A DNA stretch of 64,000 nt. It comes from Bispira polyomma (Eukaryota). Under the pieces are notes generated by a model. That model had not been told where the DNA came from. It saw nothing but the letters and a program-made list of their open reading frames with translations, and made no database searches. Made by a program: the position numbers and the translations under genes. Below, piece by piece: positions 8,813-60,985 of this stretch; position 1 is the first letter of the stretch; every line of letters begins with the position of its first letter. The stretch lies in the NCBI GenBank assembly GCA_965649765.1, contig OZ287753.1, positions 17,732,001 to 17,796,000 on the forward strand, written 5' to 3'.

Positions 8813-10155
8813 ACCACGATACATTTCTCATCCGATTCCACGCGAGTGTCTGTCAAGTGAAGGTCAGGCTTCAGAGACAGAGTTCCGTTGCCATTTGTCG
8901 TCTTAGTTAATGCCTGCATTTCCTCCTCTGATGTTGGGGACAGGTTCCCAGCTTTCCCTGACCTAGAGACAACACTTTTAGTTGTCCGCGTAGAGATTGT
9001 GGTGGTCGCCGTAGTAGTGGTCGCCTTAGCGCTCCGCTTCCCTGGGGCCATACTGTGGTCATCGTGTAGGGCACGGTTTACCTCCGCCTCTGTCGCACAC
9101 TTAAATGCCTTCATGAAACTTTTTCTGAAGTTCTCACTGATGAAGGCATATAGTACAGGATTCATCATGGAGTTGGCATAACTCAGGACTGTGATGATTT
9201 GGAACAGCGCTATAGTCCACATTGGCATATGGTCCACATGGTTGAGGACGATCTGAAACACCCAATATGGCAACCAGCAGATGATGTAGACTGTGATCAC
9301 GGTTAACACCATGTGGGTGACTTTCTTATGGGACTTCTTCTTCTCTTTGGACTTATGCTTGGCACCCACGTCTTTCAGCTTCAGGATGACCAATGAGTAG
9401 AAGACAACGATCAGACACACTGGCACAGCGAATCCAAGCATAAGGGCGTACCAGATAAATGCCTTGTGATTAGGGATTGAACCATTGGGCGGCCACTCAA
9501 TGGTGCAGGAGACGCCTGTCCCATCCTTGTTAGGCATGGTGGTGGTGTAGAGCACCATAGGTAGCATGGCCAGTAAGGAGGCCGACCAGACACAGACACA
9601 GACAATGCGCGAGATAATGGGTGTCCTAAATCGCATGGAGGTGAAGGGGTGGCATATGGCCAGGTACCGGTCAGCACTCATGGCTGTTAGGGTGAACACG
9701 CTGGTGTACCAGTTGATAGAGGTGCTGATGTAGAAGAGCTTACAGATGACAAAGCCAAAGATCCACTTGTGCACGATAGAGGTGATGATGAGTATCGGCA
9801 ATCCTATAAGGAAGCAGAGGTCAGCCACCGCCAGGTTAAGAATGTACATGTTGGTTACGGTCTTCATCTTAGTGTAGCGGAGCACTACAAAGATTACCAG
9901 ACCATTGCCCATTAGTCCAGTCACACAAATCAATGTATACAAGGCTGCGGAAACTACACTCATTGTATCCACACTCACATAGCCACCGGAGTTAGAGTCC
10001 GGATCGGTAAGATTCCCAGAGTGATTGCTGACGTTGCTGTGATTATTGACATAATTCCCGCCAGTCCAGCTGTTATTGACCATGATGTTGATGTCTTCAC
10101 CCCAGGGGGTGCTGCTAGCAGTACTGGGTTTATGGTGGACTTCTACCTCTACCAT
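8767..10155 (-). CDS. AstC-R: Class A neuropeptide GPCR, allatostatin-C/somatostatin receptor family, 462 aa, single coding exon
   Basis: Seven hydrophobic segments with GN (TM1), NLAVAD (TM2), SADRY, CWLPYW and NPVLY motifs. 'LRYTKMKTVTNMYILNLA' is typical of SSTR/AstC-R. N-terminus has several N-x-S/T sites. In-frame TAG 9 nt upstream of the ATG fixes the start. C-terminus -VTML fits a class I PDZ ligand. Confidence 0.9.
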   Translation of the reverse strand: MVEVEVHHKPSTASSTPWGEDINIMVNNSWTGGNYVNNHSNVSNHSGNLTDPDSNSGGYVSVDTMSVVSAALYTLICVTGLMGNGLVIFVVLRYTKMKTVTNMYILNLAVADLCFLIGLPILIITSIVHKWIFGFVICKLFYISTSINWYTSVFTLTAMSADRYLAICHPFTSMRFRTPIISRIVCVCVWSASLLAMLPMVLYTTTMPNKDGTGVSCTIEWPPNGSIPNHKAFIWYALMLGFAVPVCLIVVFYSLVILKLKDVGAKHKSKEKKKSHKKVTHMVLTVITVYIICWLPYWVFQIVLNHVDHMPMWTIALFQIITVLSYANSMMNPVLYAFISENFRKSFMKAFKCATEAEVNRALHDDHSMAPGKRSAKATTTTATTTISTRTTKSVVSRSGKAGNLSPTSEEEMQALTKTTNGNGTLSLKPDLHLTDTRVESDEKCIVVGNMNGQISQTVTML

Positions 10156-10232
10156 TGTCTTCTACACATTAGATGTATATCTGTGTGGGAGGGTGGGGTT
10201 GGAGATCTCTCAACACGGGGTCCAGCTGTGAG

Positions 10233-25739: not shown

Positions 25740-26082
25740 AAACAAACATGGGCCTTAAAACAAGGCTGATAAAAGTCGTCTGCTACAAACACACAGCTAG
25801 TGTTAACACTTCTCTCACAACCATTTGCAATAGTTCTCCATTGATTCTATGTGTCTCCTCTCTATGATACACAATATAGATGGCTCTGCCTTTATACAAA
25901 GTGTGTACTAGTACTAAGGAAGAAATAGAAATAAACTACCTGCCTTCAGATTTTTTCTTTCATACATACATCATGTACCATGATACACATCAAAACTCAC
26001 ACAGTGATTATCTCATTTATCATTCACAAACATTCTTAGAATGTTCTTAGTCTCAGGCAATCAGATTCTCTGAAACATATGT
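25740..26082 (+). repeat. 343-bp direct repeat X, left copy
   Basis: Matches 31384-31726 with one substitution seen (ctgcctTtatac vs ctgcctCtatac). Confidence 0.95.
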
Positions 26083-26196
26083 GATAGTCACTGCATTAAG
26101 CATGGCTTCTCAGTCGCAGAAATTTCATATATTACAGTAATGCTGATAAACAATTTGTTTACTGAGACAGCAGCCTATTAGAACACTTACTGATAG

Positions 26197-26311
26197 CCAA
26201 TAGCAGGCTGGTTCACTCAGGCATTTTGCCGCCCTTTCTATTGTGAGGGCATTGCAAAACTAGAAGTTGAATAAGCAACAACTAAAATTTTGAAAGAAAC
26301 GACGCCATCTT
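26197..26311 (+). promoter_or_regulatory. Putative E1 promoter: CCAAT, E2F-like and YY1-like motifs
   Basis: CCAAT 26197-26201, TTTGCCGC 26225-26232, CGCCATCTT 26303-26311. Same order in the E2 A repeat. Confidence 0.55.
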
Positions 26312-26479
26312 GTCAATAGATAAAAGTTGGCAAGATTCAGAAGAGTTTTACAAGTTTTAGTGTTTTATTAATTTACTTATACATCTTATACCATTTATTT
26401 TATACACAAGTGTTTATCATATACAAGGAGGGTGTTAAACGGATTATTACATTATTGTGAACAAATCCTACGACTCATC

Positions 26480-27931
26480 ATGGGCAGAGGTAAGAAGCGT
26501 CAACCTGCTACAAACATAGCTTCGTGTTCTCGATGTGACATCTCACATACCAGACCTGTTGGGAGCAGATGTAAACGTCAATTAGTGTCGGACGAAATAG
26601 GAGGCTTGCAGAGCGATTCCATAACTACACACGACCACGAAACTTCGATAAGCATGAGCGAATCTGGCACAGCCGTAAGTAGTGATTCTTTCTACCGGGA
26701 CGCGTTTCATGAACAACAGTCCATGATGAATAACATTTTAAAAACAGTGTCAAAATTACAAGAAGATATGTCCGCCCTGAAAGAAAATAAAACCCGCTTA
26801 CGTCCCATGAGTCCTGACAAAACTACAGCTGAATTAGATCAACAAGGTTCAGGTCCACTGATCCGACAGAAGTTTAATAGTCAGTGCAGAAGTAGCACAC
26901 AAGTGCGTACACAGCCTCAGGGTACACTTCGCAGAGATTCTCGTCTACCGATTCCAGATTTCTACAACGACGTACCTACACATTCACATAACCGTGCACA
27001 GAATACACCTCAGTCAGCAGCATTACTACCCACACCAAGCATCGTGTCTCAGGGGCAGAACCTATTCAATACGACGTCTCAGAGACTGCTTCCAAGTGAA
27101 CAAGTTCCACAACAAGCGGGTTGCACAGGTCTTCAGCCACATCACAACACGACTGCACACAATGCCTTCTCACAACAAGCGACAAACCACACACAAAGAG
27201 CAATGCAAGATTCGATCATCCCATCTACAGACGTACTTCGGCAGTCCTCGTTAATACAAAACGAAGTAAGCAGACGATTGGCCCAGTATGACAGTTGGTC
27301 AAGCAGCGACTACATTCAGGGTAAGTCAACTAAGAAAAAGTCGGGAAGGTACAACATTTCAGAAGTTTGCATATCCGACCCAATAGTACGTTGGCCAAAT
27401 GAGGGAAATTTAGCCGGGGTCTCAAAGAAACGTATCGCATATGATGAACTCACAGTAGCACAATTTGGCGCGGGTCAAATTCAGAACATTTTACAAGTTA
27501 AAAACCAGGTCATAGCGACAGCTATGCTAAAACAGCTAGGTGATTCATTAAGAGACAGTGCCAACCTATCCTGGCAAGTCGCGCGGGGCGCATACGCCTG
27601 TAGTATGCACGATGTGGAAGAGGGAAGGCTGTGTTGGACGGATGAACACAAATGGGCGATGAATCGCCTGTCCTACTCCCAAACGTTGATTTCAAATCCA
27701 TCCGGAGCATCAAATTCCACTAACGCGTCTGGTAACAAACCCGAGATTCCATGTCGACATTTTCAAAAGAACACTTGTCAACACAAAGGTGACCACGAGG
27801 GCCACTCAACCGTCTTCAAGCACATCTGTGCTAATTGTTTCCGCATTTCCAGACGACAGAATCCCCATCCGGAAACCAAGTGTTTCAAAATACATGGGAA
27901 ACCAGAGGTCAACACGACGCACACTCAATAG
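26480..27931 (+). CDS. gag: E1 ORF1, Gag-like protein
   Basis: First ATG at 26480 (the track start 26432 is GTG). N-terminal CxxC-x3-H-x7-C motif and C-terminal Cys/His cluster (CRHFQKNTC..H...HICANC..HPETKC) are conserved with E2 gag. Confidence 0.85.
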   Translation: MGRGKKRQPATNIASCSRCDISHTRPVGSRCKRQLVSDEIGGLQSDSITTHDHETSISMSESGTAVSSDSFYRDAFHEQQSMMNNILKTVSKLQEDMSALKENKTRLRPMSPDKTTAELDQQGSGPLIRQKFNSQCRSSTQVRTQPQGTLRRDSRLPIPDFYNDVPTHSHNRAQNTPQSAALLPTPSIVSQGQNLFNTTSQRLLPSEQVPQQAGCTGLQPHHNTTAHNAFSQQATNHTQRAMQDSIIPSTDVLRQSSLIQNEVSRRLAQYDSWSSSDYIQGKSTKKKSGRYNISEVCISDPIVRWPNEGNLAGVSKKRIAYDELTVAQFGAGQIQNILQVKNQVIATAMLKQLGDSLRDSANLSWQVARGAYACSMHDVEEGRLCWTDEHKWAMNRLSYSQTLISNPSGASNSTNASGNKPEIPCRHFQKNTCQHKGDHEGHSTVFKHICANCFRISRRQNPHPETKCFKIHGKPEVNTTHTQ

Positions 27932-30631
27932 GACGGGAAACCGCATACAGACACCACTGCTGCACGCATAACTCAAACATCTCGGAGAGGCACAGAATGT
28001 GACACAAGTATCCAGCATGATGACTTTGAGCATAAATATAAAATTGAAGGGAAAGACGTTGAGATATATTTTAATGAGTTAGGTAACAGTTCTATGGACA
28101 CTACTAGCTGTGTAATAACCAATAGTAAAACAAACGTTTTGCCAATTAACACAGTACAACAGACAGAATCTATATTTGATGATCATATGTTAAATCTAAA
28201 AGACGTTAAGTTAGTCATCAGTAATGTAAATCAACAAGTGACTAGTGGTAGTGATATGTGCAGTGACAATACTCGATCTGACTCTATGAACAATTGTAGT
28301 AGTAACTCCATGTCAAAAGTAGATAGGAGTAATGTTGATGTATATTTTAGTTCATATATATCCAGTTTGGATGGATATCACTTATGTTATATTGTATGTA
28401 ATGATAAGGGCCACATTTCCGGAGTGTACACCTGGACTAATGTGTGCGGTCGAGTGTCTCTACATAAATCTGACTACACTGTGGCTAATATATGGCCAGT
28501 AACATTTTACACAACAATGACAATAGATGTCATTGAGACAAAAGCCAAACACTTCACAAATGCAACACGTTTAAAACAACACACAAATAAACAGATTCGA
28601 CAGAGTATCACACACACACGAACAAAGACAAATAAGGCTCAATATTATTTGGACATTATTGATGAAATATCTAGAACAGTTCACCAAGGTACACAAACAC
28701 AAACAGAAGACAACATTGACACTCTACTAGTGAAACGAAAAAGTATAAAATCAGTAGACACAAATGAACATGTTGCCAATTTTGATGACATTGAGATACT
28801 ACAGAATTTGATTATAAATGACCACATTGATGCATTAGGTGACACTAATACAAAAAAAGAAAACAAATTGAAGACAAAAATGATGATGGACAACAGGACT
28901 TATGGTTTTATCACACACGAACAAGAAACTTTCAATTTTGTTGGACCAGAGAGACAGACAGTTGACATTGACTCATACGATAAGTTAATTAAGGTGGCTG
29001 AGATTATAAAACAAACAAACTTACCAAATTACAGAATGGCAAGAATACCAATTAAGAGTAATCTTAATGTGAGTAATTGGAAGAAATATCTAACCAATTA
29101 CCCAAATCAGAAATTACTTGAGTACATACAATTCGGATTTCCCATTTCTCTGTATGAGCGAGACAGACTGAATGTAAAAGATATCAAAAATCATTTCTCA
29201 GCCTTGACCTTCCCAAATGTGGTAGACAAGTATTTCACCACAGAAATAGAAAGAGGCACAATAATAGGACCAATAAATCAAACTCTTCACAAGGACACAC
29301 ATTGTTCTCCCCTTATGTCTAGGCCTAAAGACAATAATCAGCGCAGATTAATTCTTAACTTATCTCATCCTTTAGGCAGATCAGTAAATGATTGTACCGT
29401 AAAGGACAAATGCGACAACACCGACTTTGACTTAAAATTACCGACTATTGACCAAATTACCACTTACATTAAATTTTTAGGACCTAAGGCCACCTTAGCG
29501 AAATTGGACATAGCCCACGCATTTCGAAACTTACGTGTTGACCCTCTTGATTGTTTAAAACTAGGTTATGTTTGGAAAAATCAACACTTTATTGATCTAA
29601 GTCTTACTTTCGGACTCACCCATGGCACGTCTATCTTTATCATGGCATCAGACGCAATTACTTACATCATGAAAGAAAAAGGTTTTAAAGTATTTAACTA
29701 CATCGATGATTACATTATTGTAGAAAAAGAAGATAAGGCCACCTTAGCCTATGAAACTTTACAAAGTATTGTAACTGAACTTGGTTTACCCATCAATCCC
29801 AAGAAATTAGTTCCCCCTAGTAAAAAGGTCACATGTATGGGCATAACAATTGATATTGCACACGCAACTCTCAGTATTGACGAAGAAAAACTCAATTCAA
29901 TATATGACATTTGTGTCACATTCAGCTCATTAAGAAAAGTACCTAGAAATAAGTATCAATCATTATTGGGTAAACTCCTCTATATACAGAGGTGTGTGAA
30001 ACATTCACGCATATTTATGAATCGGATGCTTACAGTACTACGAAATTCCAAACATAGCAAATGGATAAACTTAACGGACGAGTTTCATAAGGACTTGAAT
30101 TGGTTCTTACGTTTCTTAAAAGAATTCAATGGTACTACAAAGTATAGCATTGAAAACCAACACTATGACATACTATTTCATGGTGACGCGTGTCTCTCCG
30201 GCATAGGTGGCGTGTGGGATAAGAAAGTTTTTCAAACAGTGTTACCAATGTTTTTAACAGAATCACTATCTATAGTACACTTTGAAATGATCTGCGTACT
30301 ATTAGCATTGAAATTATGGGGTAAACATTGGCAGAACAAACGAATTAAAATCAAATCAGATAACATGGCAGTGGTTTCTGTAGTGCGGTCGCTGAAAACT
30401 AAAGATAAATATTTAAGCTTATGTTTGAGAAACATTTGGCTACTCTGTGCAAAATACAATATAGACCTCTTAATAGAACACATACCAGGTAAAGACAACG
30501 TTATTGCAGACTGTTTATCTCGTTGGCATGAATTAGGACATTATGGACAAAAAATGAAGGACTTGATTAAGGAAAATTTTGAAATGTACAATATACCACT
30601 AGACATGTTCCTAATGGACACTTTAATTTGA
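27932..30631 (+). CDS. pol: E1 ORF2, reverse transcriptase plus RNase H (first ATG 28094; frame open from the gag stop)
   Basis: RT motifs KLDIAHAFRNL, LTFGL and YIDD. RNase H motifs DAC, E, KSDN and N.IAD.LSR. Same frame as gag, with no stop in 27932-28093. Confidence 0.93.
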   Translation, partial: DGKPHTDTTAARITQTSRRGTECDTSIQHDDFEHKYKIEGKDVEIYFNELGNSSMDTTSCVITNSKTNVLPINTVQQTESIFDDHMLNLKDVKLVISNVNQQVTSGSDMCSDNTRSDSMNNCSSNSMSKVDRSNVDVYFSSYISSLDGYHLCYIVCNDKGHISGVYTWTNVCGRVSLHKSDYTVANIWPVTFYTTMTIDVIETKAKHFTNATRLKQHTNKQIRQSITHTRTKTNKAQYYLDIIDEISRTVHQGTQTQTEDNIDTLLVKRKSIKSVDTNEHVANFDDIEILQNLIINDHIDALGDTNTKKENKLKTKMMMDNRTYGFITHEQETFNFVGPERQTVDIDSYDKLIKVAEIIKQTNLPNYRMARIPIKSNLNVSNWKKYLTNYPNQKLLEYIQFGFPISLYERDRLNVKDIKNHFSALTFPNVVDKYFTTEIERGTIIGPINQTLHKDTHCSPLMSRPKDNNQRRLILNLSHPLGRSVNDCTVKDKCDNTDFDLKLPTIDQITTYIKFLGPKATLAKLDIAHAFRNLRVDPLDCLKLGYVWKNQHFIDLSLTFGLTHGTSIFIMASDAITYIMKEKGFKVFNYIDDYIIVEKEDKATLAYETLQSIVTELGLPINPKKLVPPSKKVTCMGITIDIAHATLSIDEEKLNSIYDICVTFSSLRKVPRNKYQSLLGKLLYIQRCVKHSRIFMNRMLTVLRNSKHSKWINLTDEFHKDLNWFLRFLKEFNGTTKYSIENQHYDILFHGDACLSGIGGVWDKKVFQTVLPMFLTESLSIVHFEMICVLLALKLWGKHWQNKRIKIKSDNMAVVSVVRSLKTKDKYLSLCLRNIWLLCAKYNIDLLIEHIPGKDNVIADCLSRWHELGHYGQKMKDLIKENFEMYNIPLDMFLMDTLI

Positions 30632-30637
30632 TTTCAG

Positions 30638-31413
30638 GAATGACAGAAACAGCTAGACCTCTCTTGACAAGTGCAGTCCAGAGAATTAGACAGTGTCACA
30701 GACCCAGAACTACTAAACAATATAACAGCCAGTTTAGATTATTCCTGGCCTTCACAGTATACTACCAGCTGAATGAAACATTCAGCTTCAATACCATTAT
30801 TACATTCATGGAATATCTAGTACAATCTGGAGTTTCACCCAAAGTGATAAACAACTACTTGTCAGCTATACGTCATACTTGCAAATTTCTTAACATTACT
30901 GACAAGGGTCTTTATGATCAAAGATTACCACTGTTTCAAAGATCAGTCGAATTATCCTCAAGATTTTCTCCCAAGGTCAAAGGTGTCTTCGACCTTCACC
31001 AATTGATAGAAATTTCAAAAACATGTGAAATTCTTCATTGCCCTGAATTATTCAGAACAGCGTTTTTGGTTGCATATTTCGGATTCCTGCGAATCTCTAA
31101 TTTGACTACAACTTCCGGATACCGATTTGACCCAACTAGACACATTACCAGGGATGACTTGGTGTTTGCTCACCCTGGCATTCATTTGATTCTAAAGTGG
31201 TCGAAGACGAATCAGACCAGATCACATACAGACATAATTCAACTCCCTGCTCTTAGCAACCCTTGGCTTTGTCCACTCACTGCTGTGAAGAAATTATTTC
31301 AAAAATTTCCAATGTCAGGGAAAGCACCATTATTAGCTGATCCTTCAGACAAAGATAAATGCCTTTCAGATACAAAGCTCAACAAACAAACATGGGCCTT
31401 AAAACAAGGCTGA
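30638..31413 (+). pseudogene. E1 tyrosine recombinase, C-terminally truncated
   Basis: GFLRISN (R) and KWSKT (K) are present. The ORF runs into repeat X at 31384 before the HxxR, H/W and Y catalytic residues seen in E2. Confidence 0.85.
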
Positions 31414-31726
31414 TAAAAGTCGTCTGCTACAAACACACAGCTAGTGTTAACACTTCTCTCACAACCATTTGCAATAGTTCTCCATTGATTCTATGTGTCT
31501 CCTCTCTATGATACACAATATAGATGGCTCTGCCTCTATACAAAGTGTGTACTAGTACTAAGGAAGAAATAGAAATAAACTACCTGCCTTCAGATTTTTT
31601 CTTTCATACATACATCATGTACCATGATACACATCAAAACTCACACAGTGATTATCTCATTTATCATTCACAAACATTCTTAGAATGTTCTTAGTCTCAG
31701 GCAATCAGATTCTCTGAAACATATGT
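31384..31726 (+). repeat. 343-bp direct repeat X, right copy
   Basis: Offset of 5644 bp from the left copy. Confidence 0.95.
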
Positions 31727-43284: not shown

Positions 43285-46200
43285 AGCCTACGCTTCCTTT
43301 CAGCACATTCCGACGTCCGCTAATTTGTGTGCGTCCGATTCGATCTGACATCAGCAGATGTTGTGCTACCTTCCATCAGATATATACTAAAAATTCGTCA
43401 AATATTGATGTTAAATATGGCTTGAGAAAGCTTATTTTATTATGATTACAGTGCTTTTTTCAACCGAAAATGTATATGTTTCCTCCTTGTACTTTCTTGG
43501 ATTTCCCACGGATTCTGGTGGGAAAAAAAGCACAGTAATCACAATAAAATAAGCTTTCTCATACTATTTTCAAAGTCAACATCTGACGAATATTGAGTAT
43601 ATATTGGATGAAAACTGTACCTATGATAGTGTTTTTGTAGCCATTTTCGTTTCAAAATCTCACAGTCTTCCCGATTTTCCCCTACCTGACAGATAAAATA
43701 TGTTAGCCATTAAAAGATTTCAACACCCTCCTCGACACTTTTGGGTTCTCACAGTTTATCTCTACTTCAACCCACATCCACAATCACATACTCGATCTGG
43801 TAATTGCAAGACCAAATTCAAATCTCATCAGAGAATCATGGGTAACTGATGGGATTTCAGATCACCTAGCAACCTTCGCCTATTTAAATTTACCAATACC
43901 TGCCTCACATAAACCTCGTGTCATAAAATACAGAAACATCAGAAAAATCATTATAAACAAATTTAGAGACGATATCCTGGAAACTAATCTCATCAAACAT
44001 CCATGTAAAAATGCTGAAAATCTTAGCTTACAATACAATCACTGCCTTTCTACTGTCCTTGATAAACATGCGCCATGGGTATCAAAAACCCTTCCCCCAA
44101 CTAACACCCATGAATGGACCAATGCCCCCATAACAGAGGCCAAAAGACGCAAACACCAACTTGAGCGTCAATGGCGATGCACAAAATCCTCCTTAGACAG
44201 AAGCCGTTATCGTATCGCCACAAATAATTACAACAGGCTAGTAACTGATGCCAAAAAGCAACACTACGACTCCATCAACACTGAAAATCATCAAATCCTC
44301 TACTATTAAATCTTGTGAATTACATCCCATCCCAGCAGTTATACTGAGTCAATGTCTTGACATTCTTGTCACACCCATAACAAATATATTAAATTTTTCT
44401 CTTCGGGATGGTGTTTTTCCCACCTGTTTCAAGACGGCAAATGTAACTCCCTTGATTAAAAAACAAGGGCTTGATAAAAACCAGCTCAAAAACTAGAGAC
44501 TGGTGTCAAACCTCAGCTTCGTCTCAAAAGTTATCGAGAAAGCTGTAGCTAAACAAATTTCTGACCACCTTAATAGACAAAACATTGAAAATCGCCGCCA
44601 GTCTGCTTATAGAAAATTTCACTCTACAGAAAGTGCCCTTTTTTCCATCAGCAATGATATCAATCTTGCACTGGACCGCAACAACACAGTGGCCCTCACC
44701 CTTCTGGATCTCTCAGCTGCATTCGACACTATTGATCATGTCCTGCTCTGTGACACTTTCAAGCAGTGGTTCGGTATAAATGGCAGTGTCCTTAAATGGA
44801 TCAGATCCTACCTTACTCTTAGGGCACAAAGAATTAAACTAGATGATCACCTATCATCTTCCATAAAGCTACCATATGGAGTACCCCAGGGATCCGTCCT
44901 TGGCCCTCTACTTTTTACCCTTTATACACATCCTCTCAGCACTGTCATCAATAAACACAATAAAAACAAAACACCACATGTATGCAGATGACACTCAAGT
45001 CTATCTCTCCTTCAATCCACAAAATGCAAATAATAACATAGACCTACTTGCAGACTGTTTGATGTCCAGTCCTGGATGAACTACTCTAAACTAAAGCTTA
45101 ACCCTGACAAAACAGAATTCATCCTCATAGGAAACAAAAAAAACAGTGAACTCCTAAAATCTTTGTTTCCCATCTCCCTGCTGGGAAAAGACATACTACC
45201 TTCCGAAAATGCTAAAAACCTGGGTGTCACTTTTGATTCAGCTTTTTCGTTCGATACTCATATTGCCAACATCTGTCGCTCCTCTATTACCACATACGCG
45301 ACATCAAAAGAATCAGAAACCACTTGTCCATGGACACAGCGATAACTGTGGCAAATGCCCTTGTGAGTAGCCACTTCGACTACTGCAATTCTCTCTTGTA
45401 CGGAGCAAACAAGTCAAACATTAAAAAGCTCCAGTCCATCCAAAACTACCTATGTAGGGTCATTTTTCGCCTGGGTTGTCGCACAGATGTCACTCCTTAC
45501 CTTAAAAAATTACACTGGTTGCCCATTAAATCTCGAATTTTGTTTAAGATTCACGTTACCACTTTTAAGGCTGTAGTCACTCAACAGCCACCCTACCTTG
45601 CCTCCCTTCTTTCCTTCAGTAACCGCAAGAGAGGCAACAGACTCTCTGTCACTTCGGTCAGACCAATCAGAAAGGCGGGTTTCACAGCGTTCTCCACTGC
45701 AGCTCCACGGTTATGGAACAGTCTCCCAGTTGACCTCAGATCAGTTGACACACTTATTGGTTTTAGGAAAAAGCTTAAAACCTATCTTTTTAATCTTGCC
45801 TACCCACCTTAGCTTTCCTCGTGCACGCTTCCACTTCCTTCCTTACGACTTTGCAATTTCCATGGACTTAATGATTGGACTAATGATTCTGCTGTTGCGC
45901 TTTAGAAGATGCCCAGCATCAATAAAGCGCGTTAAAACCTATAATAATAATAATAACAGACGTCAGCCGACGTCTGATGGGATCTGATGGAAATATGCTG
46001 AAAGGAAGCACTTGGTAGTGTTGTATAATGATTTTTAGGCCGATTTTTACCCTCATTATACAATACTACCAAGTGCTTCCTTTCAGCAGATTTGCATCAG
46101 ATCCGATGTCTGCCGACGTCTGTTTGGCCAACAGTTTTTATATGTCAAGGAGCGAAAAAATCGGGAGGACTGTCCGATTTTGAAGCAATAGTGGACAAAT

Positions 46201-46692
46201 AAACTGACATATGTATAATTTTCATCCAATAAATACTCAATATTCGTCGGATGTTAAAGTTGAAAATGGCATGAGAAAGCTTATTTTATTGTAATTACTG
46301 TGCTTTTTTCCTCACCAAAATCCGTTAAGAAACGGCTCAGATATTTAAGCTTATAGAAGGGTATCCCATTAACTTCCCCTTCTGCAGTGAAGAATACGTC
46401 ACAGTGACGTCATAATGACGTCAGGTTTGTAGTTAGGTCACAGCTTATACATCAGGAAGTAAAAATGGATACCCTTTTTTAACGGTGTATATCTCAGTCG
46501 TTTCTAATCGAATTTTTGTGGAAAAAGAAGCACAGTAACCACAATAAAATAGGCTTTCTCTTGCCATTTTCACCCTCTACATCCAACGAATTTTAAGTAG
46601 ATATCTGATGAAAGGAAGCGCCACATCGGCCGACGTCGTATCGGATCGCGCACCTCCAAATCGTCGGAATGTGCTGAGAGGAAGCGTAGGCT
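43285..46692. mobile_element. Fold-back MITE of about 1.16 kb, interrupted by an L2 insertion
   Basis: TIR AGCCTACGCTTCCT(T/C)TCAGCACATTCCGACG at both ends, flanked by TA. Arms are long inverted repeats around a centre at about 46030-46063. Confidence 0.85.
43710..45954 (+). mobile_element. 5'-truncated, frameshifted L2-clade LINE (end of endonuclease plus RT)
   Basis: 'HILDLVI' and 'GISDH' (endonuclease end); LLDLSAAFDTIDH, GVPQGSVLGP, YADD, LHWLPI and APRLWNSLP (RT). 3' stem GCGCTTT...AAAGCGC and (TAA)n tail. Several frameshifts, a stop and an internal deletion. Confidence 0.92.
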
Positions 46693-53793: not shown

Positions 53794-54346
53794 CAGTGCC
53801 CTACCCTAGTAAACTTGTAGATGTGGTGTAACACAGGAAAATAACAAGAAAGGTAGGTTTTGGGGATATTAGCTTTAATTTGACTATGTTATCACTAATA
53901 ATTATTTACATACTGTGTAGTAAGGGGCCACCTTAGCCCCAAGAGTTTAGGAGAAGTTAAGAGTTTAAGGTGACCTTAACCTGAGGACAACAGGCCAAAG
54001 TGACCAAAGGGATTTTTAAAATTTAAGGGGTAGCCCTAGCTTGAAAGTTAGGGCTACCTAAGATTGAGTTTAAGGTTAAGGGTAGCCCTAACTTGGAAGT
54101 TAGGGTTACCAAAGATTGAAATTTTAAGGTTGAATTTAGGGGTAACCCTAACTTGAAGTTAGGGTAACCTTAGAATGAGTTTAAGTTTAAGAAAAATGGT
54201 AACCTTAGATTTTATTTGAGGTTGCCAAACGAGATTTAGTAAAGATGTAAAATGATTAAATTAGTATAAGGTAAGGTGGCCCCAAAATATTTATATTTAA
54301 GCATTATTATATTTTATTTGTATATAATGTATGTAAATAAAGCCCC
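53794..54346 (-). repeat. E2 repeat B2 (553 bp)
   Basis: Matches 55448-56000 with two substitutions seen. Confidence 0.95.
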
Positions 54347-55251
54347 CAAAAAGGGTAAAATTGAAATTAAAAAACCATGGTACTAGCTAAGAAACTAAAA
54401 CCTGTGCTGCTCACTAATAAAGTCCATAAGAGGAGCAAAAACTCACTAAACCTTAAACCCCTAGCATATACAATTACCATGGCTTACAGAGAACATGCAT
54501 ACAGACATAAGCAAAATATAAATCGAGTAGCTCTTGTCTTCCAGGAGGGCAGTGCTTGCTTGTATAGAGTTCATTCCTGACTGAGCCACAAGAGATCCAT
54601 GAATCCAGTGTGCCTGAAACTACATGCTTACAGTTGAACATGTGATCACAAAGTTACCAAATGCACTTGCACACAACATGATGTGCAATGCATTATAACG
54701 TTATACTAGCGACAACACGAGGTTGCGAAATACAAACATTTTACAAATCCAGTCCTCGTTGTGACGAGGAACAACATTAATAGTTATACTTTACATGCTA
54801 CTATGACAACAAAAAGGATGCGACTTCACATACTGTACACATATAAAATCGTGCTGCCTGACGCAGGACATTTGACAACATTATCAATTTGATATACAAC
54901 AAAGGGAAGACCCTGAAAACAATAAAGTAACATACATTGATAACTACAAAAGGAGACGCAACCTCAGCAGCAAGCAGCTACCTAAAATTAAGTGTTGGCC
55001 CCTAAGGGCCCTGGTGTTACCCAGAAAAGTATGGGAGATAAGTCACCTGAGGCCCCAGAAGGCCCCCAAGGGCGGGGAACTGTGAAGGCCAGCAGTAATG
55101 CATAACTCGTGGGCCCACAGCCCCGAGCCCCCACCCCCCTGCGCCAAGGTGTAAAGTGAGACTTCAGGAACCCCAGGGACTGCATGCCGCACTCCAGGGA
55201 CGGACGCATAGCTGAAAACTACAGAGGAAGTAGTAGGGGCAAGTGGGTGGG

Positions 55252-55451
55252 TAATGTAAAATATTAAAGATGGCGTTGTTGCCCAAATGACTTCAATAGT
55301 ATAAGTGAGGATTCTAGCTAAAAAGCGGGAAAACAGAGGTTAATTAGTACACAAGTGACCAATTAGGAAGGGGTTCATAGGGCATGAACCCAGGGTAGAA
55401 AATACTAGTAGCACTGAACTTGCTATCCCCTACGGCGCTACCCCGCACAGT
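55252..55451 (-). repeat. E2 repeat A2 (200 bp)
   Basis: No mismatch seen against 60786-60985. Confidence 0.95.
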
Positions 55452-56000
55452 GCCCTACCCTAGTAAACTTGTAGATGTGGTGTAATACAGGAAAATAACA
55501 AGAAAGGTAGGTTTTGGGGATATTAGCTTTAATTTGACTATGTTATCACTAATAATTATTTACATACTGTGTAGTAAGGGGCCACCTTAGCCCCAAGAGT
55601 TTAGGAGAAGTTAAGAGTTTAAGGTGACCTTAACCTGAGGACAACAGGCCAAAGTGACCAAAGGGATTTTTAAAATTTAAGGGGTAGCCCTAGCTTGAAA
55701 GTTAGGGCTACCTAAGATTGAGTTTAAGGTTAAGGGTAGCCCTAACTTGGAAGTTAGGGTTACCAAAGATTGAAATTTTAAGGTTGAATTTAGGGGTAAC
55801 CCTAACTTGAAGTTAGGGTAACCTTAGAATGAGTTTAAGTTTAAGAAAAATGGTAACCTTAGATTTTATTTGAGGTTGCCAAAAGAGATTTAGTAAAGAT
55901 GTAAAATGATTAAATTAGTATAAGGTAAGGTGGCCCCAAAATATTTATATTTAAGCATTATTATATTTTATTTGTATATAATGTATGTAAATAAAGCCCC
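55448..56000 (-). repeat. E2 repeat B1 (553 bp)
   Basis: Begins about 10 nt after the YR stop and overlaps A2 by the CAGT core. Confidence 0.95.
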
Positions 56001-56009
56001 AAAGCCCAA

Positions 56010-57056
56010 CTAGGAAGTAGTGGAAGGGGAAAGGAGGGCCTTGAAGGTGAGGGCGACTTGGTCAGATGCATTGTGATCCTGTACAATATATTTCCACACA
56101 CAATCAGACGTCCAAGTGCCATGGCTCTGGATATCTTGAATTGGGACATTATTGTTGAAGGCCAAGGTGGCACCTGAACGCCTGAAGGTGTGGAAAGAAA
56201 TGTTTGATTGCTGGAGGCCAAGACGCCTCAAAATTTGAGTGAGATTTTGTCTAGCTTGGGTGTCAATCATTGGGGCCCATTTATGGTCTTTTTTAAACTG
56301 AAAGAGAGGAGAATTTTTGTGTCCAGGAGTAATAGCTAGTAAGGCCCTTGTGGCAGCCACCGGACAAAGACTAGAGCCACTTAGGCTCGGTATTTTAATA
56401 ACTTTTGCTACATTCTTTGACTGCATTGTTTTAGACCACTTTATTATGAGGTGGAGGCCAGGGGAGGCAAAAAGTACGTCCCCCCGGGACAGTTGGACTA
56501 GTGAAGAGAATTGAGAGACAGCATGTGGAAGTAAGTTCGATATTCTAAGAAAAGAAAAGAAAGCAATGAGGTACAGAGCCTTGAAGACCTGCCCCATGTA
56601 CATGCTGTCACAAATTTGAGTAATTTGGAGTAACAGGGGAATGTCAATAATAGCGTTAATTTTAGCGATGAAGGGGCTATTGAGTGTGAGGGCTTTTTGG
56701 TAATACTTAATTCTAGGATCTGCAAATGCAGAGACGTCAAGGCCATAGAGGGCCAATTTAGCCTTAACCGCCGAGAGGTAGTTTGCAATGGAGGAGGAAG
56801 AGACATGATTAACCACTAATACTTCTAAGAAAGCCAATACAATGAGGGGGGAGATATTTTGAGGCCTGACCTGAGCAAAACTACAATAGGCCAAGAATAT
56901 CCTAAACATATTTGTATAGGCCCTTTCAGTGGCTGGTCTAAAGGCCTGATGGGCTCTGTATGAGGCTTGTGTAGCAATCTTTCTTAGCTTGGAAGGTACA
57001 TCTGCAATTAGATAGACCAATCTATTTCTAACATTGTGTCTTTTACTTTTACCCAT
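56010..57056 (-). CDS. E2 tyrosine recombinase, intact; probably entered by splicing at 57001
   Basis: Full catalytic set: FLRISN (R), KWSKT (K), FHTFRRSGA (HxxR), HGTW and KYI (Y). Confidence 0.93.
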   Translation of the reverse strand: MGKSKRHNVRNRLVYLIADVPSKLRKIATQASYRAHQAFRPATERAYTNMFRIFLAYCSFAQVRPQNISPLIVLAFLEVLVVNHVSSSSIANYLSAVKAKLALYGLDVSAFADPRIKYYQKALTLNSPFIAKINAIIDIPLLLQITQICDSMYMGQVFKALYLIAFFSFLRISNLLPHAVSQFSSLVQLSRGDVLFASPGLHLIIKWSKTMQSKNVAKVIKIPSLSGSSLCPVAATRALLAITPGHKNSPLFQFKKDHKWAPMIDTQARQNLTQILRRLGLQQSNISFHTFRRSGATLAFNNNVPIQDIQSHGTWTSDCVWKYIVQDHNASDQVALTFKALLSPSTTS

Positions 57057-59488
57057 TTGGGATTCGATACCAGTTCTAGTAACTTGTCATTATTGCTGGC
57101 CGTGATCTGCCACCTAGAGAGGAGATCAGCCACTGTATTAAGTCTACCTAAAATGTGAATGGTTTTGAGACTGATATCATGGGAGGCTACGGTCATGAAG
57201 ATGTTTCTGGCAATAGCTGCCAAAGTGAGGTCTTTAGTTTTGCCTGAATTGAGGATAGTGACCACGGCAGCATTGTCGCATTGCAATATTAACCTCTTAC
57301 CTGCCCACGCTGACTTCCATAGCCTAATGGCAACTAAGATGTTTAACATCTCCAGATGAACTATCGTGAAATCTAGATAACCTAGAGGAATTTGGAATTG
57401 GTATACCTCATCATTACAACGGCCTCCCAGACCTTGGAGGCACGCATCCAACTGAATACAATCGGTAGTGGGTTTGTGTTCAAAGAAGGCTTTTCCATTA
57501 AATGTTGGTAAAAATTTTTTAAACCAATTTACATCCTGATGAAACTCAGGTGTAAGTTTTACTTTTTGATCCGGGCCTACAGATCTTAGGACGTCAAGCA
57601 TTCGGTTTAAGAAAGCACGTGAAACTCGAACACATTTGGATACATATAACAATTTACCTAGCAGTGACTGCAACTCCCTCTTACTGCAGTAGTTTCTTAA
57701 TTGCCAGTCTTGCACAAGTGTGTTTATTTCTAGTAGCTTTTCATCTGGCAATGAGATTGTCAAGTCATTTGTATTAACTAACACCCCCAGACACGTTACT
57801 GACGTGCTGGGGTGAACAAGTTTTTTGTGACTAATCGCAAAGCCTAGTTCCTGGAGTAAGTTGAGCAATATATCAAATGAATGTTTACTTTCTATGACGT
57901 CACCATAGCCGATTACGTCGTCGATATAGTTGGTGACGTCATGTCCGTGACGTTTCATGATGTACCTGACGGCGTCACTTAATCGCTGAAAAATGGCGCT
58001 CCCGTGCCGAAAACCAAATGGGAGGCAAGAGTCGACGTAGTATTTGTCTAATTTTAAGCCTAATAGATTGTAATCGGCTGGATCCATTTTTACGTGACGA
58101 AATGCCCGACTTACGTCAATTTTATATAAGAGCGTTCCACGTCCCATACGACATATTTTGTTTGTGATTGTGTCAATTGTAGGAAGGGTTAATGCAAACG
58201 CAGTACCGAGATACTTATCCTTGACTACAGCCGAATTCACAGAGTTGCCATGAGGAAAGCTTAAATCTATGATAACGCGCCTGTGTGCGGCACCTGGCTT
58301 TTCCCTAGTCATAAAGGGAGAAATATGGAGGTTTTGTATGGGGGCCTTATGGAAAGGGCCCAACATGGCGCCTAACTCAGTCTCTTCTTTTAAATAAGCA
58401 TGCACATCATCTGGAAATTGTGTTGCAGATGAATGATTCTGTTCTGTATGAGATAACTTGCTGTCAGGATTAAAATCGAGGGGAAACCCATATCTTATCA
58501 AAAAGGGAAGTTGTTTATCCCAGTAGTCAGTCAAGTATTTTTCCCATACATCTGGGTTCAACTCAGATTTCAATTGAACTTGTGCCCCCATATAATTTGG
58601 GTAGTTGTCCTGCTTAATCTGAGTGTGTAACTCTAACAGAGACTTATCCGACTTTACTCGTTTATCCGTTTGGGGAACTTGGAGGTCATTTAGCGGAATA
58701 AACCCATACTTATCTGTAGTTTGAGTATCCCATTGCTGGAACTGAGGCTGGTTGCAAGCACGTTTTATAAGTTCCTTGTTTTTCGATTTAGTTTGTAGTT
58801 CTAGGTCATATTTGTCTGATTTTATTCCCCCAATACCTCGAGAGAGTATTTTAAGACCTTGACCTTGGTTACAAGTATCTGGTAAATGTGTGACAGAGTT
58901 GTCACTAGTGTCCATATAATGGTCATTGTCACTCAAAGGGGAAAACCTATTGTGAGTGGAAATGGGCCATTTGCCCTGAATGTCTAATTTTGTGCTTTCC
59001 AGCTTTTGGCCAAATTGATCACCTTTTGTTGGAGGGGGTTTACCCATTTCTGACATTACATTATTCCTCTGTGCACTTGTAAAAGGGAAAGCTCCTTTTG
59101 TGAAAGCTTTAACACTCACTCTGTGCCCCAGTTCATGTTTTGTGGACACTTCTGACATTTGGTTATTATTTAAACATGGTGAACATTTAACATGGTGACT
59201 TTGACACCTCTGATTCACATTTGCACTTTGTACAGAAACCTTTATGGCAGCAGACCTGGAGGGAGCCTTTCTTTTAACCACATCAGCATAAGATCTATTT
59301 ACAAATTTGGCCCAATCTGCCCTCCAATGTGTACTGCCAGTATTACATTTAAGACTATTAAACATAGTTCTAGTGGGAAAACCTTTAGAATTATTTACAA
59401 CTTTTTGTGCAAGTTTTTTACTGACCACCTCTTGTGTGGAAGAAACATAGGCTGGCACTGCATTACGGCAGTGCCTTACTCGTTTTTT
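57008..59488 (-). CDS. pol: E2 ORF2, reverse transcriptase plus RNase H, in the -1 frame from gag
   Basis: KIDVSRAFRH, LPFGF and YIDD (RT); DAC, E, QCDN and N.VAD.LSR (RNase H). The track start 59458 is GTG, and the frame is open back through the slippery site. Confidence 0.93.
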   Translation of the reverse strand, partial: KKRVRHCRNAVPAYVSSTQEVVSKKLAQKVVNNSKGFPTRTMFNSLKCNTGSTHWRADWAKFVNRSYADVVKRKAPSRSAAIKVSVQSANVNQRCQSHHVKCSPCLNNNQMSEVSTKHELGHRVSVKAFTKGAFPFTSAQRNNVMSEMGKPPPTKGDQFGQKLESTKLDIQGKWPISTHNRFSPLSDNDHYMDTSDNSVTHLPDTCNQGQGLKILSRGIGGIKSDKYDLELQTKSKNKELIKRACNQPQFQQWDTQTTDKYGFIPLNDLQVPQTDKRVKSDKSLLELHTQIKQDNYPNYMGAQVQLKSELNPDVWEKYLTDYWDKQLPFLIRYGFPLDFNPDSKLSHTEQNHSSATQFPDDVHAYLKEETELGAMLGPFHKAPIQNLHISPFMTREKPGAAHRRVIIDLSFPHGNSVNSAVVKDKYLGTAFALTLPTIDTITNKICRMGRGTLLYKIDVSRAFRHVKMDPADYNLLGLKLDKYYVDSCLPFGFRHGSAIFQRLSDAVRYIMKRHGHDVTNYIDDVIGYGDVIESKHSFDILLNLLQELGFAISHKKLVHPSTSVTCLGVLVNTNDLTISLPDEKLLEINTLVQDWQLRNYCSKRELQSLLGKLLYVSKCVRVSRAFLNRMLDVLRSVGPDQKVKLTPEFHQDVNWFKKFLPTFNGKAFFEHKPTTDCIQLDACLQGLGGRCNDEVYQFQIPLGYLDFTIVHLEMLNILVAIRLWKSAWAGKRLILQCDNAAVVTILNSGKTKDLTLAAIARNIFMTVASHDISLKTIHILGRLNTVADLLSRWQITASNNDKLLELVSNPKWVKVKDTMLEIDWSI
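59454..59488 (-). promoter_or_regulatory. Putative -1 programmed ribosomal frameshift signal
   Basis: A_AAA_AAC (59488-59482) in the gag frame, 6-nt spacer GAGTAA, perfect hairpin GGCACTGC-CGTAAT-GCAGTGCC (59475-59454). Confidence 0.8.
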
Positions 59489-60450
59489 AACGGATATTTT
59501 TTACAGTCTTTTGCAGGGTGGGGGTAATACCTCCCATTTTGAAAGCATTGGTTACACACGTGACTATATGACACACCTTTGAATTCGTGATCCCCTTTTT
59601 GGGGGCAAGTACCCTTTTGGAAGTACCTACATGGGATGGACTTCTCATGACTTTTCCTGGTGTTGGTTTGATGATTACTATTTGCAGTCTGGATGACAAC
59701 CCTTTGGGCATGAGCCCGTCTAATCCTGTCCAACTTGTGGGCATCTCCCCAGGTTACCTTACCCTCTTCCATTTTACACAGTACAACGGCATGGCTAGCC
59801 TTAGCCGAGGTCCAGGAAAAGTCATGAGCGTCCTCCATGAGGTCAGTGAGATAGTCCAACATTTGGTTCTTAACGTCTAAACTACTTTCATCTCTAGCTA
59901 TACTGGCAAAACCAGAGACCCACTGGGCCATTGACAACGCGTCATACGTAACTCGTGTTTTGTTTTGTCCCCCTAGTATAACGTTCTGAAGCCAAGCCAC
60001 CTTATTCTTCACCCACAGAGTGTCGGGACCCCCTCTTTGAGATTTTGACGTACCTGATTCATTAATGGCCACCAATTCCTTAAGACGTGAATCCACTGCA
60101 GTCTGTAGGGAGTCGGATGAACGTAGTGTCTGTAGCGTCGGAACCAGTAGCTCAGAAGTGGTTAGCTCCGCCTGTCTAGGTTGGGCTGCACTCCCCGGGC
60201 TCGACGCCGGCAAAGCCTGGGCTCCATGTGAACTGCGATAAACTTGCTGCTCAACTTGGGTCATACGCCCACTTAATGCTTTGAGTTCAGTCAAAATTTG
60301 TAGGTTAACGTCGGCAGCAGTTACACCATCGCTAGCCACAGAGTTCTGCTTGGAAGTTCCCACACCGGTATATAATTTACAGTTTTCATCAATGGGTTTA
60401 ATATGACTAGTTTCACACTTGTGACAGTAGTATTGTTTCCTCGGGGCCAT
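59476..60450 (-). CDS. gag: E2 ORF1, Gag-like protein (324 aa)
   Basis: N-terminal CHKC-ETS-H-x7-C, a coiled-coil-like segment, and C-terminal CRYFQKGTC..H...HVCNQC..HPAKDC. Confidence 0.88.
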   Translation of the reverse strand: MAPRKQYYCHKCETSHIKPIDENCKLYTGVGTSKQNSVASDGVTAADVNLQILTELKALSGRMTQVEQQVYRSSHGAQALPASSPGSAAQPRQAELTTSELLVPTLQTLRSSDSLQTAVDSRLKELVAINESGTSKSQRGGPDTLWVKNKVAWLQNVILGGQNKTRVTYDALSMAQWVSGFASIARDESSLDVKNQMLDYLTDLMEDAHDFSWTSAKASHAVVLCKMEEGKVTWGDAHKLDRIRRAHAQRVVIQTANSNHQTNTRKSHEKSIPCRYFQKGTCPQKGDHEFKGVSYSHVCNQCFQNGRYYPHPAKDCKKYPLKNE

Positions 60451-60785
60451 AGCCTCTGAATAATATAAGAACTCGTATCTTTGATACCTGCAACTATACT
60501 AAAGGAACTGTAGCGCGATAATCTGAATTAAATTATATGTAATCAGGCAAATAGCCGTGAATTTGATGCAATATAATTGATTTGACCACGTTCCTTTACC
60601 ACCGCTCAAACGAGCATATAATCGCAAGACTCAAAGTAGAGTAAAACACAGGAATCCAGCAAAGACACTGCAGATCAGTTCCTCCTTAGTGTGTAGCACA
60701 ACTTAGTGAATCATTTGTTGCATTCTTTGTTTCCATAACACAAATATTAAAATCAGTGAAGTAAAAATAAAACACATAAAAATAA

Positions 60786-60985
60786 TAATGTAAAATATTA
60801 AAGATGGCGTTGTTGCCCAAATGACTTCAATAGTATAAGTGAGGATTCTAGCTAAAAAGCGGGAAAACAGAGGTTAATTAGTACACAAGTGACCAATTAG
60901 GAAGGGGTTCATAGGGCATGAACCCAGGGTAGAAAATACTAGTAGCACTGAACTTGCTATCCCCTACGGCGCTACCCCGCACAGT
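60786..60985 (-). repeat. E2 repeat A1 (200 bp), contains the putative promoter
   Basis: CCAAT 60893-60897, TTTCCCGC 60866-60859 and CGCCATCTT 60809-60801. Hairpin GGGTTCAT-AGGGC-ATGAACCC. Confidence 0.95.

What the first reader, a model, noticed from the sequence alone, without database searches (positions are those of the whole stretch)
27926..28096. E1 may use UAG readthrough instead: sister elements with different recoding strategies
Seen: gag and pol are in the same frame, separated only by CAA TAG G, and all 54 codons from the TAG to pol ATG 28094 are open. The TAG lies shortly after the C-terminal Cys/His cluster, about where E2 gag ends. Established: gammaretroviruses read through UAG-G, and a 5' CAA favours readthrough. 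Only a small CGG-GAAA-CCG hairpin follows; I see no convincing pseudoknot. Inference: a frameshift/readthrough switch within one retrotransposon clade.
Basis: partly seen in the sequence, partly recalled or inferred. Interest (0 to 1): 0.7.

Follow-up and report, generated by a model that had tools for sequence, protein, structure and literature searches.

The report
Three recoding modes in Ngaro retrotransposons
One whole branch of a jumping-gene family in this genome keeps a single stop codon between two in-frame genes, which ribosomes likely read through, while two related branches carry signals predicted to slip the ribosome one base back or one base forward instead.

Summary
E1 is a Ngaro-like tyrosine-recombinase (YR) retrotransposon, and its gag-TAG-G-pol junction is a clade trait, not a nonsense mutation: 76 of 80 aligned genomic copies keep TAG, across lineages only 42-46% identical in RT/RNase H. 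In 13 intact copies the frame is open for 325-512 codons from TAG to RT, while the first Met falls anywhere from codon 11 to 95, so ATG 28094 is not a conserved start. Readthrough is the best reading (0.8) but is inferred; no RNA run or assay was available. The small hairpin and 5' CAA are not clade-wide, and no 3' structure was found; +4 G and a few fixed bases are conserved. E1 and E2 are not sisters (41% RT/RH). The tree separates UAG-G, A-AAA-AAC/hairpin (-1) and GTT-stop (+1, closterovirus-like) lineages. YR is probably made by splicing, which this scan already reported in this genome; it also noted an in-frame gag-UAG-pol element in another genome. My literature searches found no report of readthrough in YR retrotransposons.

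The parts
26080..26292 (+). E1 left terminal repeat A1 of a split-direct-repeat element (A1-gag-pol-YR-B1-A2-B2)
   Evidence: matches the A2 repeat of intact copies L032, L033, L039 at 99.5-100%
26372..27931 (+). E1 gag-like ORF (stop to stop; first ATG 26480), C-terminal Cys/His cluster, ends in TAG
   Evidence: no Pfam family; 1,177 relatives at E<=0.001 among 50%-cluster representatives
27320..27326 (+). Phase-1 splice-donor-like site G|GTAAGT in mid-gag (Q-G-K); predicted donor of the YR transcript
   Evidence: phase-1 donor 584-620 nt before the stop in 20 of 20 UAG-clade family representatives; also in the other clades
27926..27949 (+). Candidate readthrough site: CAA TAG G, then clade-conserved bases at +13 (C), +16 (C), +21 (A), counting T of TAG as +1
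   Evidence: TAG in 76 of 80 copies; +4 G 20/20, +13 C 19/20, +16 C 19/20, +21 A 19/20 family representatives
27932..29014 (+). In-frame linker of pol between the TAG and the RT-proximal conserved block: fast evolving but always open; holds ATG 28094 (not conserved)
   Evidence: 0 stops in frame against 27 and 58 in the other frames; alignment of 16 open copies
28416..28423 (+). Position of a phase-1 acceptor-like TTTCAG|G found only in E1's subclade; this copy reads TTTCCG
   Evidence: TTTCAG in 25 of 29 E1-search loci, TTTCCG in 1, not parsed in 3; AG lacking in 11 of the 14 other representatives tested
27932..30631 (+). E1 pol ORF, 899 aa: reverse transcriptase and RNase H-like domain, ending right after RNase H
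   Evidence: PF00078 E 3.9e-11 at 465-640, PF13456 E 1.1e-5 at 773-865
30616..30642 (+). U-rich phase-1 splice-acceptor-like site (CAG ends at 30637), 6 nt after the pol stop, in front of YR
   Evidence: same position, 19-20 codons before the YR RPxT motif, in 21 of 37 rows examined
30583..31383 (+). E1 tyrosine recombinase ORF, cut off at 31383 in this copy (344 aa in intact copies)
   Evidence: PF02899 weak, E 0.0076
59454..59488 (-). E2 predicted -1 frameshift signal: A AAA AAC (59488-59482), 6-nt spacer holding the gag TAA, 8-bp hairpin (59475-59454)
   Evidence: heptamer in 27 and intact stem in 28 of 29 parsed copies (30 examined); fold z -2.5
53794..60985 (-). E2, a full Ngaro-like element: A1 60985-60786, gag 60498-59476, pol 59500-57008 (-1 frame), YR 57086-56010, B1, A2, B2
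   Evidence: PF00078, PF13456, PF00589 E 3e-5

Best explanation
E1 is a Ngaro-like tyrosine-recombinase retrotransposon whose gag and pol lie in one frame split by a clade-conserved UAG-G, and it likely makes its reverse transcriptase as a minor Gag-Pol fusion when some ribosomes read through that UAG. Shown: element anatomy, conservation of TAG-G, the long open frame, the lack of a conserved Met, and the clustering of junction types on the RT/RH tree. Inferred: most ribosomes stop at UAG and give Gag with its Cys/His cluster; a few insert an amino acid and continue through the linker into RT/RNase H. The stimulator appears to be primary sequence (G at +4 and fixed bases at +13 to +21), perhaps with a distant element that I could not identify; it is not a local pseudoknot. 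Related branches are predicted to reach the same Gag-Pol product by -1 slippage on A AAA AAC before a hairpin (E2) or by +1 slippage on GUU-stop. YR is predicted to come from a spliced mRNA joining the mid-gag donor to the acceptor behind the pol stop.
For: TAG kept in 76 of 80 distinct copies whose junction aligned to one of 20 family representatives (the representatives are among the 80); the four exceptions are four different sense codons. All 29 UAG-labelled rows form one branch in a 56-row FastTree and 13 of 13 in a 27-row IQ-TREE, support 100/99; labels were set before the trees. The branch holds lineages 42-46% identical in RT/RH. In 13 intact copies: 0 stops over 325-512 codons from TAG to RT, 18-81 stops in each other frame, first Met at codon 11-95. 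Indels seen just after the TAG between the subfamilies with open frames are multiples of three. Linker dN/dS is 0.38-0.62 in the 8 diverged pairs where dS could be computed. G at +4 in 20 of 20 representatives; C +13, C +16, A +21 in 19 of 20 while the encoded residues vary. The junction occupies the same place, just after the Cys/His cluster, as textbook -1 signals in the E2 branch. UAG-G is the type III readthrough context (PMC3542737, passages).
Against: No RNA, ribosome-profiling or peptide evidence was obtained. Type III readthrough generally needs a 3' RNA structure and none was found: local z-scores -1.2 to +2.3 in 20 copies and 0.63 for E1; a long-range duplex in E1 (about +490 to +530) is the best of 46 windows, but z is only -1.6 and it does not covary across families. 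Close pairs show no purifying selection on the linker (dN/dS 1.0 and 0.83; 1.4 and 1.1 over the first 54 codons), and protein-guided alignment lowers dN/dS in the diverged pairs. The fixed-base pattern was chosen after seeing the data and the families are related. TAG|G also fits the YAG|G splice-acceptor core. In Candida Tca2, a gag-UGA-pol junction alone did not direct readthrough in a yeast reporter (PMC2194720, abstract). Protein searches favour intact copies, so the counts are not a random sample.
Confidence: 0.8

Rival explanations
1. Pol is made by splicing: either TAG|G itself acts as a 3' splice site, or the mid-gag donor joins an acceptor inside the pol 5' region and skips the stop.
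For: TAG|G matches YAG|G and would explain invariant AG-G; these elements carry conserved splice signals. In E1's subclade a phase-1 TTTCAG|G lies about 490 nt after the TAG, in frame with the phase-1 donor (25 of 29 loci).
Against: The 19 nt before the TAG hold 1 T in E1 and 0-7 T in 29 copies, against 8-11 T before the YR acceptor (those sites were picked for T content). Strong donors found within 2 kb upstream are phase 1 (one phase 2), none phase 0, so a join to TAG|G would be out of frame (consensus patterns only). The internal AG is lacking in 11 of the 14 representatives tested outside E1's subclade and in the window copy; 9 of 18 third positions in that block are invariant anyway; protein similarity and the open frame extend upstream of it.
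Confidence: 0.08
2. Pol is initiated on its own (internal promoter, reinitiation after the gag stop, or a non-AUG start just after it), and the TAG is an ordinary terminator.
For: Tca2 has a minor promoter in its gag-pol junction (PMC2194720, abstract). ATG 28094 is present in 12 of the 13 closest copies.
Against: The first Met varies from codon 11 to 95 between families and the frame upstream of it stays open in all 13 intact copies; no AUG lies next to the stop. It does not explain why the stop is always UAG followed by G, when the frameshift branches end gag with TAA, TAG or TGA.
Confidence: 0.05
3. The stop is removed in some transcripts by A-to-I editing (UAG to UIG, read as Trp) rather than read through by the ribosome.
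For: UAG is the preferred ADAR triplet (recalled, no call). The E1 long-range duplex would pair the UAG itself. Two copies carry TGG there (L016; L162, which fell outside the 80).
Against: Editing before reverse transcription should leave many TGG copies; 1 of 80 has it, beside CAG, GAG and TAT once each. The duplex is neither significant nor general. Editing does not need the invariant +4 G.
Confidence: 0.05
4. The TAG is a nonsense mutation in a single gag-pol ORF, or UAG is a sense codon in this host.
For: A few copies have a sense codon there and a fused ORF (L160, L161, L187).
Against: 76 of 80 copies across deep lineages have TAG; fused copies are singletons with different codons. No TAG occurs in frame in 13 open linkers or in the 899-codon pol ORF, and TAG ends gag in some frameshift-type families.
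Confidence: 0.01

Closest known systems
Ngaro-like YR retrotransposons, order DIRS (PMC9210276, PMC4157794, PMC8547959, PMC3783388; passages read)
   Same: gag, RT/RNase H, YR in that order; split direct repeats A1...B1-A2-B2; no methyltransferase after RNase H.
   Different: The passages I read describe overlapping or frameshifted ORFs and none mentions an in-frame gag-UAG-pol junction. Poulter and Butler 2015, as quoted in PMC13003380, propose frameshifting into YR; here the YR frame does not overlap pol in 3 copies (L173, L176, L195) and carries an acceptor signature. No SGNH hydrolase ORF was looked for.
Gammaretrovirus (MuLV) gag-pol readthrough; type III UAG-G readthrough (PMC3542737, PMC8310308; passages read)
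   Same: UAG-G after a Cys/His gag end, pol in frame, predicted minor Gag-Pol fusion.
   Different: No compact 3' pseudoknot or stable local fold; a 325-512-codon variable linker with no protease hit; unrelated element class. Luteovirid readthrough (UAG-G, 3'-adjacent sequence plus an element 700-750 nt away) is the closer formal analogue, but no distal element was shown here.
Candida albicans Tca2 (gag-UGA-pol; PMC2194720, abstract read)
   Same: Retrotransposon with gag and pol in frame across one stop, whose junction alone does not explain the bypass.
   Different: LTR retrotransposon (copia type, recalled), UGA rather than UAG, with a predicted pseudoknot.
Closterovirus GUU_stop_C +1 frameshift (PMC3542737, passage read)
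   Same: The third branch ends gag with GTT then TGA/TAG, and pol continues in the +1 frame for 204-720 codons in 8 of 9 copies.
   Different: Animal-type retrotransposon, not a plant RNA virus; the base after the stop is T (8 of 9) or A, not C; usually CAG CGA/CGG before GTT.

Membership tests
Ngaro-like YR retrotransposon | Tyrosine recombinase ORF instead of a DDE integrase | tested here: met
   E2 YR hits PF00589 (E 3e-5, below the curated cut-off) and E1 YR PF02899 weakly; intact E1 copy L039 shows H-C-F-R-R and a downstream W-S-Y but no Pfam hit; no integrase family hit in pol
Ngaro-like YR retrotransposon | Split direct repeats A1 ... B1 A2 B2 with the internal repeats downstream of YR | tested here: met
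   L039: A1 1152-1363 = A2 6912-7123 (100%), B1 6698-6912 = B2 7189-7403 (99.5%); both repeat pairs seen in 7 of 20 fetched copies; E2 likewise. The window's E1 copy has lost its 3' repeats.
Ngaro-like YR retrotransposon | ORF order gag, RT/RNase H, YR, with no methyltransferase domain | tested here: met
   pol ends about 35 residues after the RNase H hit; no methyltransferase family in Pfam scans
Ngaro-like YR retrotransposon | RT/RH groups with reference Ngaro elements rather than PAT or VIPER | not tested
   no named reference sequences were retrieved; the trees hold own-genome copies only. PMC4157794 warns that structure alone can mislead.
Type III (gammaretrovirus-like) readthrough signal | UAG with 3'-adjacent G, downstream ORF in frame | tested here: met
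   G at +4 in 20 of 20 family representatives; open frame in 13 intact copies
Type III (gammaretrovirus-like) readthrough signal | 3' RNA structure close to the stop (pseudoknot or stem-loop) | tested here: not met
   z 0.63 for E1; -1.2 to +2.3 in 20 copies. These folds do not model pseudoknots, but no stable stem was found either.
Type III (gammaretrovirus-like) readthrough signal | Long-distance base pairing, as in luteovirids and tombusvirids | tested here: inconclusive
   E1 duplex near +490 ranks first of 46 windows, z -1.6; z below -2 in 2 of 20 copies; searched only to about +1.2-1.5 kb
Type III (gammaretrovirus-like) readthrough signal | Measured readthrough product | not testable with these tools
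   needs a reporter, ribosome profiling or proteomics
Type I (UAG-CAR-YYA) readthrough signal | CAR-YYA directly after the stop | tested here: not met
   the codon after TAG starts with G in 20 of 20; a similar in-frame RACYR motif lies 2-4 codons further on in 17 of 20, against 19 of 800 background windows (post hoc)
Canonical -1 programmed frameshift (E2 branch) | X XXY YYZ heptamer, short spacer, 3' structure, pol in the -1 frame | tested here: met
   A AAA AAC in 27 of 29 parsed copies, 6-nt spacer, 8-bp stem intact in 28; -1 frame open to the locus end in 17

The most novel reading that the evidence does not exclude
One family of YR retrotransposons in one animal-type genome runs all three classic gag-pol recoding modes side by side - UAG readthrough without a local structure, -1 slippage on A AAA AAC, and a closterovirus-like +1 slippage on GUU-stop - and has switched between them at least twice. 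The readthrough is driven by an undescribed linear signal (UAG-G with fixed C, C and A at +13, +16, +21).
Probability: 0.5. Interest if true: 0.78.

Novelty: new variant of a known kind. Interest (0 to 1): 0.62.

Why it matters
How DIRS-order elements express RT from their gag-first mRNA is not settled in the papers I could read. A clade-wide UAG-G junction would add stop-codon readthrough to this order and a structure-poor variant to type III readthrough. The neighbouring branches give a natural comparison: same gag, same RT, same host ribosomes, three predicted recoding signals. The GTT-stop branch would bring the poorly understood closterovirus-type +1 shift into an animal system where short reporters can be tested directly. 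In practice, annotation tools will treat such elements as broken or start pol at a wrong Met.

Tried and rejected
RNA evidence: no RNA holder listed. Three runs of unrecorded kind laid on intact copy L039 showed no GT..AG joint among 14 listed joints and no change at the TAG among the 40 best-supported differences shown (221 more not shown); this says nothing on expression. Other hosts: the search for related loci with a gag alignment found nothing in metagenome or viral contigs; with an RT alignment, two distant metagenome loci and nothing in viral or genome contigs. Junction DNA from other species was therefore not examined; only protein ends were. A degenerate pattern search of the own genome returned 0 because my pattern did not fit even the window copy; it was not used. 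Long-range pairing of +4..+40 with about +490..+530: attractive in E1, rejected as unproven. Internal TTTCAG|G as a general pol acceptor: rejected. CGG-GAAA-CCG hairpin and 5' CAA as clade-wide stimulators: rejected. The 343-bp direct repeat around E1 as an LTR: rejected, intact copies begin at 26080-26082 and lack it. A first IQ-TREE run timed out and was replaced. Some gag-C dN/dS values are spoiled by frameshifts in the copies and were not used. [quoted passage not shown]
Full report
Observation. The junction is as described: CAA TAG G at 27926-27932, a 519-codon gag frame before it and an 899-codon pol frame after it, with the first ATG at codon 55, 28094. The 54 codons alone would be open in 396 of 20,000 shuffles, but the 361 codons to the RT region in 0 of 20,000. 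The small hairpin exists, yet the region folds no better than shuffles (z 0.63).

What the elements are. E1 and E2 encode RT and RNase H (PF00078, PF13456) and a tyrosine recombinase (PF00589 at E 3e-5 for E2). Intact copies show split direct repeats A1...B1-A2-B2 (both pairs in 7 of 20 fetched E1-family copies; E2), and pol ends right after RNase H. That is the Ngaro layout given in PMC9210276 and PMC4157794 (passages); grouping with named Ngaro references was not tested. The window's E1 copy is cut off inside YR at 31383 and sits between a 343-bp duplication of flanking DNA, which is not an LTR.

Is the TAG inherited? Of 30 loci from a DNA search with the E1 junction (42 matches; 40 of 131 candidates scored), 28 have CAA TAG GA, one TGA TAG GA and one old copy TGG. 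The ten closest copies stay open for at least 344 codons after it. Protein searches with two distant gag relatives returned 101 and 88 scored matches out of thousands of candidates; I examined 60 returned loci and 60 fetched stretches, which partly overlap. Counting distinct copies whose junction aligned to one of 20 family representatives, 76 of 80 keep TAG, and four have TGG, GAG, CAG or TAT. The representatives are among the 80; L015 (TAG) and L162 (TGG) did not align and are outside the count. A nonsense mutation is excluded.

Is the region after the TAG translated? Sixteen copies are open from TAG to RT. In 13 of them (three near-duplicates left out) the linker runs 325-512 codons with no stop, against 18-81 stops in each other frame, and the first Met lies at codon 11 to 95. 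Indels just after the stop between the open subfamilies are multiples of three. Linker dN/dS is 0.38-0.62 in eight diverged pairs and could not be computed in two; it is 1.0 and 0.83 in two close pairs, so amino-acid constraint is weak and the main signal is the open frame. Translation therefore appears to enter pol at or very near the TAG, not at a conserved AUG.

What signal surrounds it? In 20 family representatives G follows the TAG in all 20, and C at +13, C at +16 and A at +21 stand in 19 each while the encoded residues vary; an in-frame RACYR motif lies within seven codons in 17 of 20 against 19 of 800 background windows (chosen after inspection, related sequences). The 5' side is only A-rich (12 and 13 of 20). 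No local structure was found (z -1.2 to +2.3 in 20 copies). A duplex between the 3'-adjacent stretch and about +490 to +530 is the best window in E1, but z is -1.6 and it lacks covariation. UAG-G matches type III readthrough as reviewed in PMC3542737 (passages); the MuLV pseudoknot (PMC8310308, passages) has no counterpart here.

Rivals. Splicing had to be tested because these elements carry splice signals: a phase-1 donor 584-620 nt before the stop in 20 of 20 representatives and a U-rich phase-1 acceptor 19-20 codons before the YR RPxT motif in 21 of 37 rows (4 other positions, 12 not parsed). TAG|G is a poor acceptor (1 T in the preceding 19 nt in E1, 0-7 in 29 copies) and no phase-0 donor was found. 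A phase-1 TTTCAG|G at about +490 is present in 25 of 29 E1-search loci, but the AG is lacking in 11 of 14 other representatives and in the window copy, and half of the third positions in that block are invariant; it may be a side route in E1's subclade, not the general one. Independent initiation is unlikely for lack of a conserved Met, though Tca2 shows that such junctions can mislead (PMC2194720, abstract). A-to-I editing would predict an excess of TGG copies, which is not seen. No RNA data were available to decide directly.

E1 versus E2. E2 has A AAA AAC, a 6-nt spacer and an 8-bp hairpin, kept in 27 and 28 of 29 parsed copies of 30; A AAA AAC is among the most shifty heptamers (PMC5009743, passages). 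E1 and E2 share only 41% in RT/RH. A 56-row FastTree (L144 dropped for coverage; copies with broken junctions or no RT hit were not labelled or included) and a 27-row IQ-TREE put the UAG-G copies on one branch (100/99) and the K-N-E-type -1 copies on another (100/100). A third set ends gag in GTT-TGA/TAG with pol in the +1 frame, open for 204-720 codons in 8 of 9 copies, which recalls the closterovirus GUU_stop_C motif. Four labels need three changes, the minimum; the tree is unrooted, so the direction of the switches is unknown. The switch is real at family level but old, not between sisters.

Literature and earlier notes. Eight searches aimed at recoding or splicing in YR elements and one on the closterovirus motif gave no report of readthrough or +1 shifting at the gag-pol junction of DIRS-order elements. 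I saw passages of 10.1101/2021.04.08.439009, PMC6681497, PMC8547959, PMC7192593, PMC5009743 (first 300,000 characters held), PMC8310308, PMC9210276, PMC3542737, PMC13003380, PMC5890265, 10.1101/2022.06.16.496473, PMC3783388, PMC12440569 and PMC4157794, and the abstract and outline of PMC2194720; no supplements.

Verdict. A real, clade-wide feature. UAG readthrough is the most likely mechanism (0.8), shown by comparison and not by assay. Readthrough and frameshift switches are known from retroviruses and LTR elements, so this is a new variant of a known kind; its interest lies in three predicted modes within one YR family and in a readthrough site without a detectable local structure. Interest 0.62.

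Noticed in passing
window 25740-26082 and 31384-31726: The window's E1 copy breaks off inside YR at 31383 and is flanked by a 343-bp direct duplication (99.7%) of DNA that is not part of the element; the cause (repair event or assembly) was not determined.
   Followed up: partly
window 27321 and 30637; E2 60053 and 57002 (- strand): Conserved phase-1 donor in mid-gag and U-rich acceptor 6 nt behind the pol stop predict a spliced GagN-YR fusion in all branches. Found here before the look-up; this scan had already reported it on other pieces of this genome.
   Followed up: yes
L176, L177, L179, L180, L182, L183, L186, L191, L198: Third junction type: gag ends in R-V (GTT) then TGA/TAG and pol continues in the +1 frame (8 of 9 copies), like the closterovirus GUU_stop_C motif.
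   Followed up: partly
L175, L189, L190: A fourth small group ends gag in A-S-V, has AAA AAC about 30 nt before the stop and the -1 frame open; it groups with one GTT-stop copy (L198), which suggests a further switch.
   Followed up: partly
proteins P0047, P0049, P0058, P0107 (K-N-E/D at or near the end); P0052, P0062, P0064, P0135 (R-V or Q-V ends): Gag relatives from other assemblies end in the same residues as the -1 and +1 types, hinting that these strategies occur beyond this genome; their DNA was not seen.
   Followed up: no
L202:733-5010: A distant GC-rich metagenome element also has a 504-aa ORF and a 920-aa ORF in one frame across a single stop (TGA-A), upstream of RT; single copy, not tested.
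   Followed up: no
window 28420-28620 and homologues: A small conserved block (V-Y-L...S-G-F/V...Y/I-I-D) inside the otherwise variable pol linker of all UAG-clade families; no Pfam hit.
   Followed up: no
window 26489-26495: A second phase-1 donor-like site (AG|GTAAG) four codons after E1's first ATG, seen in 2 of 20 representatives.
   Followed up: partly
window 8767-10161 (-): Host 464-codon open frame encoding a rhodopsin-family GPCR (PF00001, E 1.4e-64).
   Followed up: partly
window 43371-46613: Cluster of long imperfect inverted repeats and palindromes (74-86%), probably a degenerate DNA transposon.
   Followed up: no
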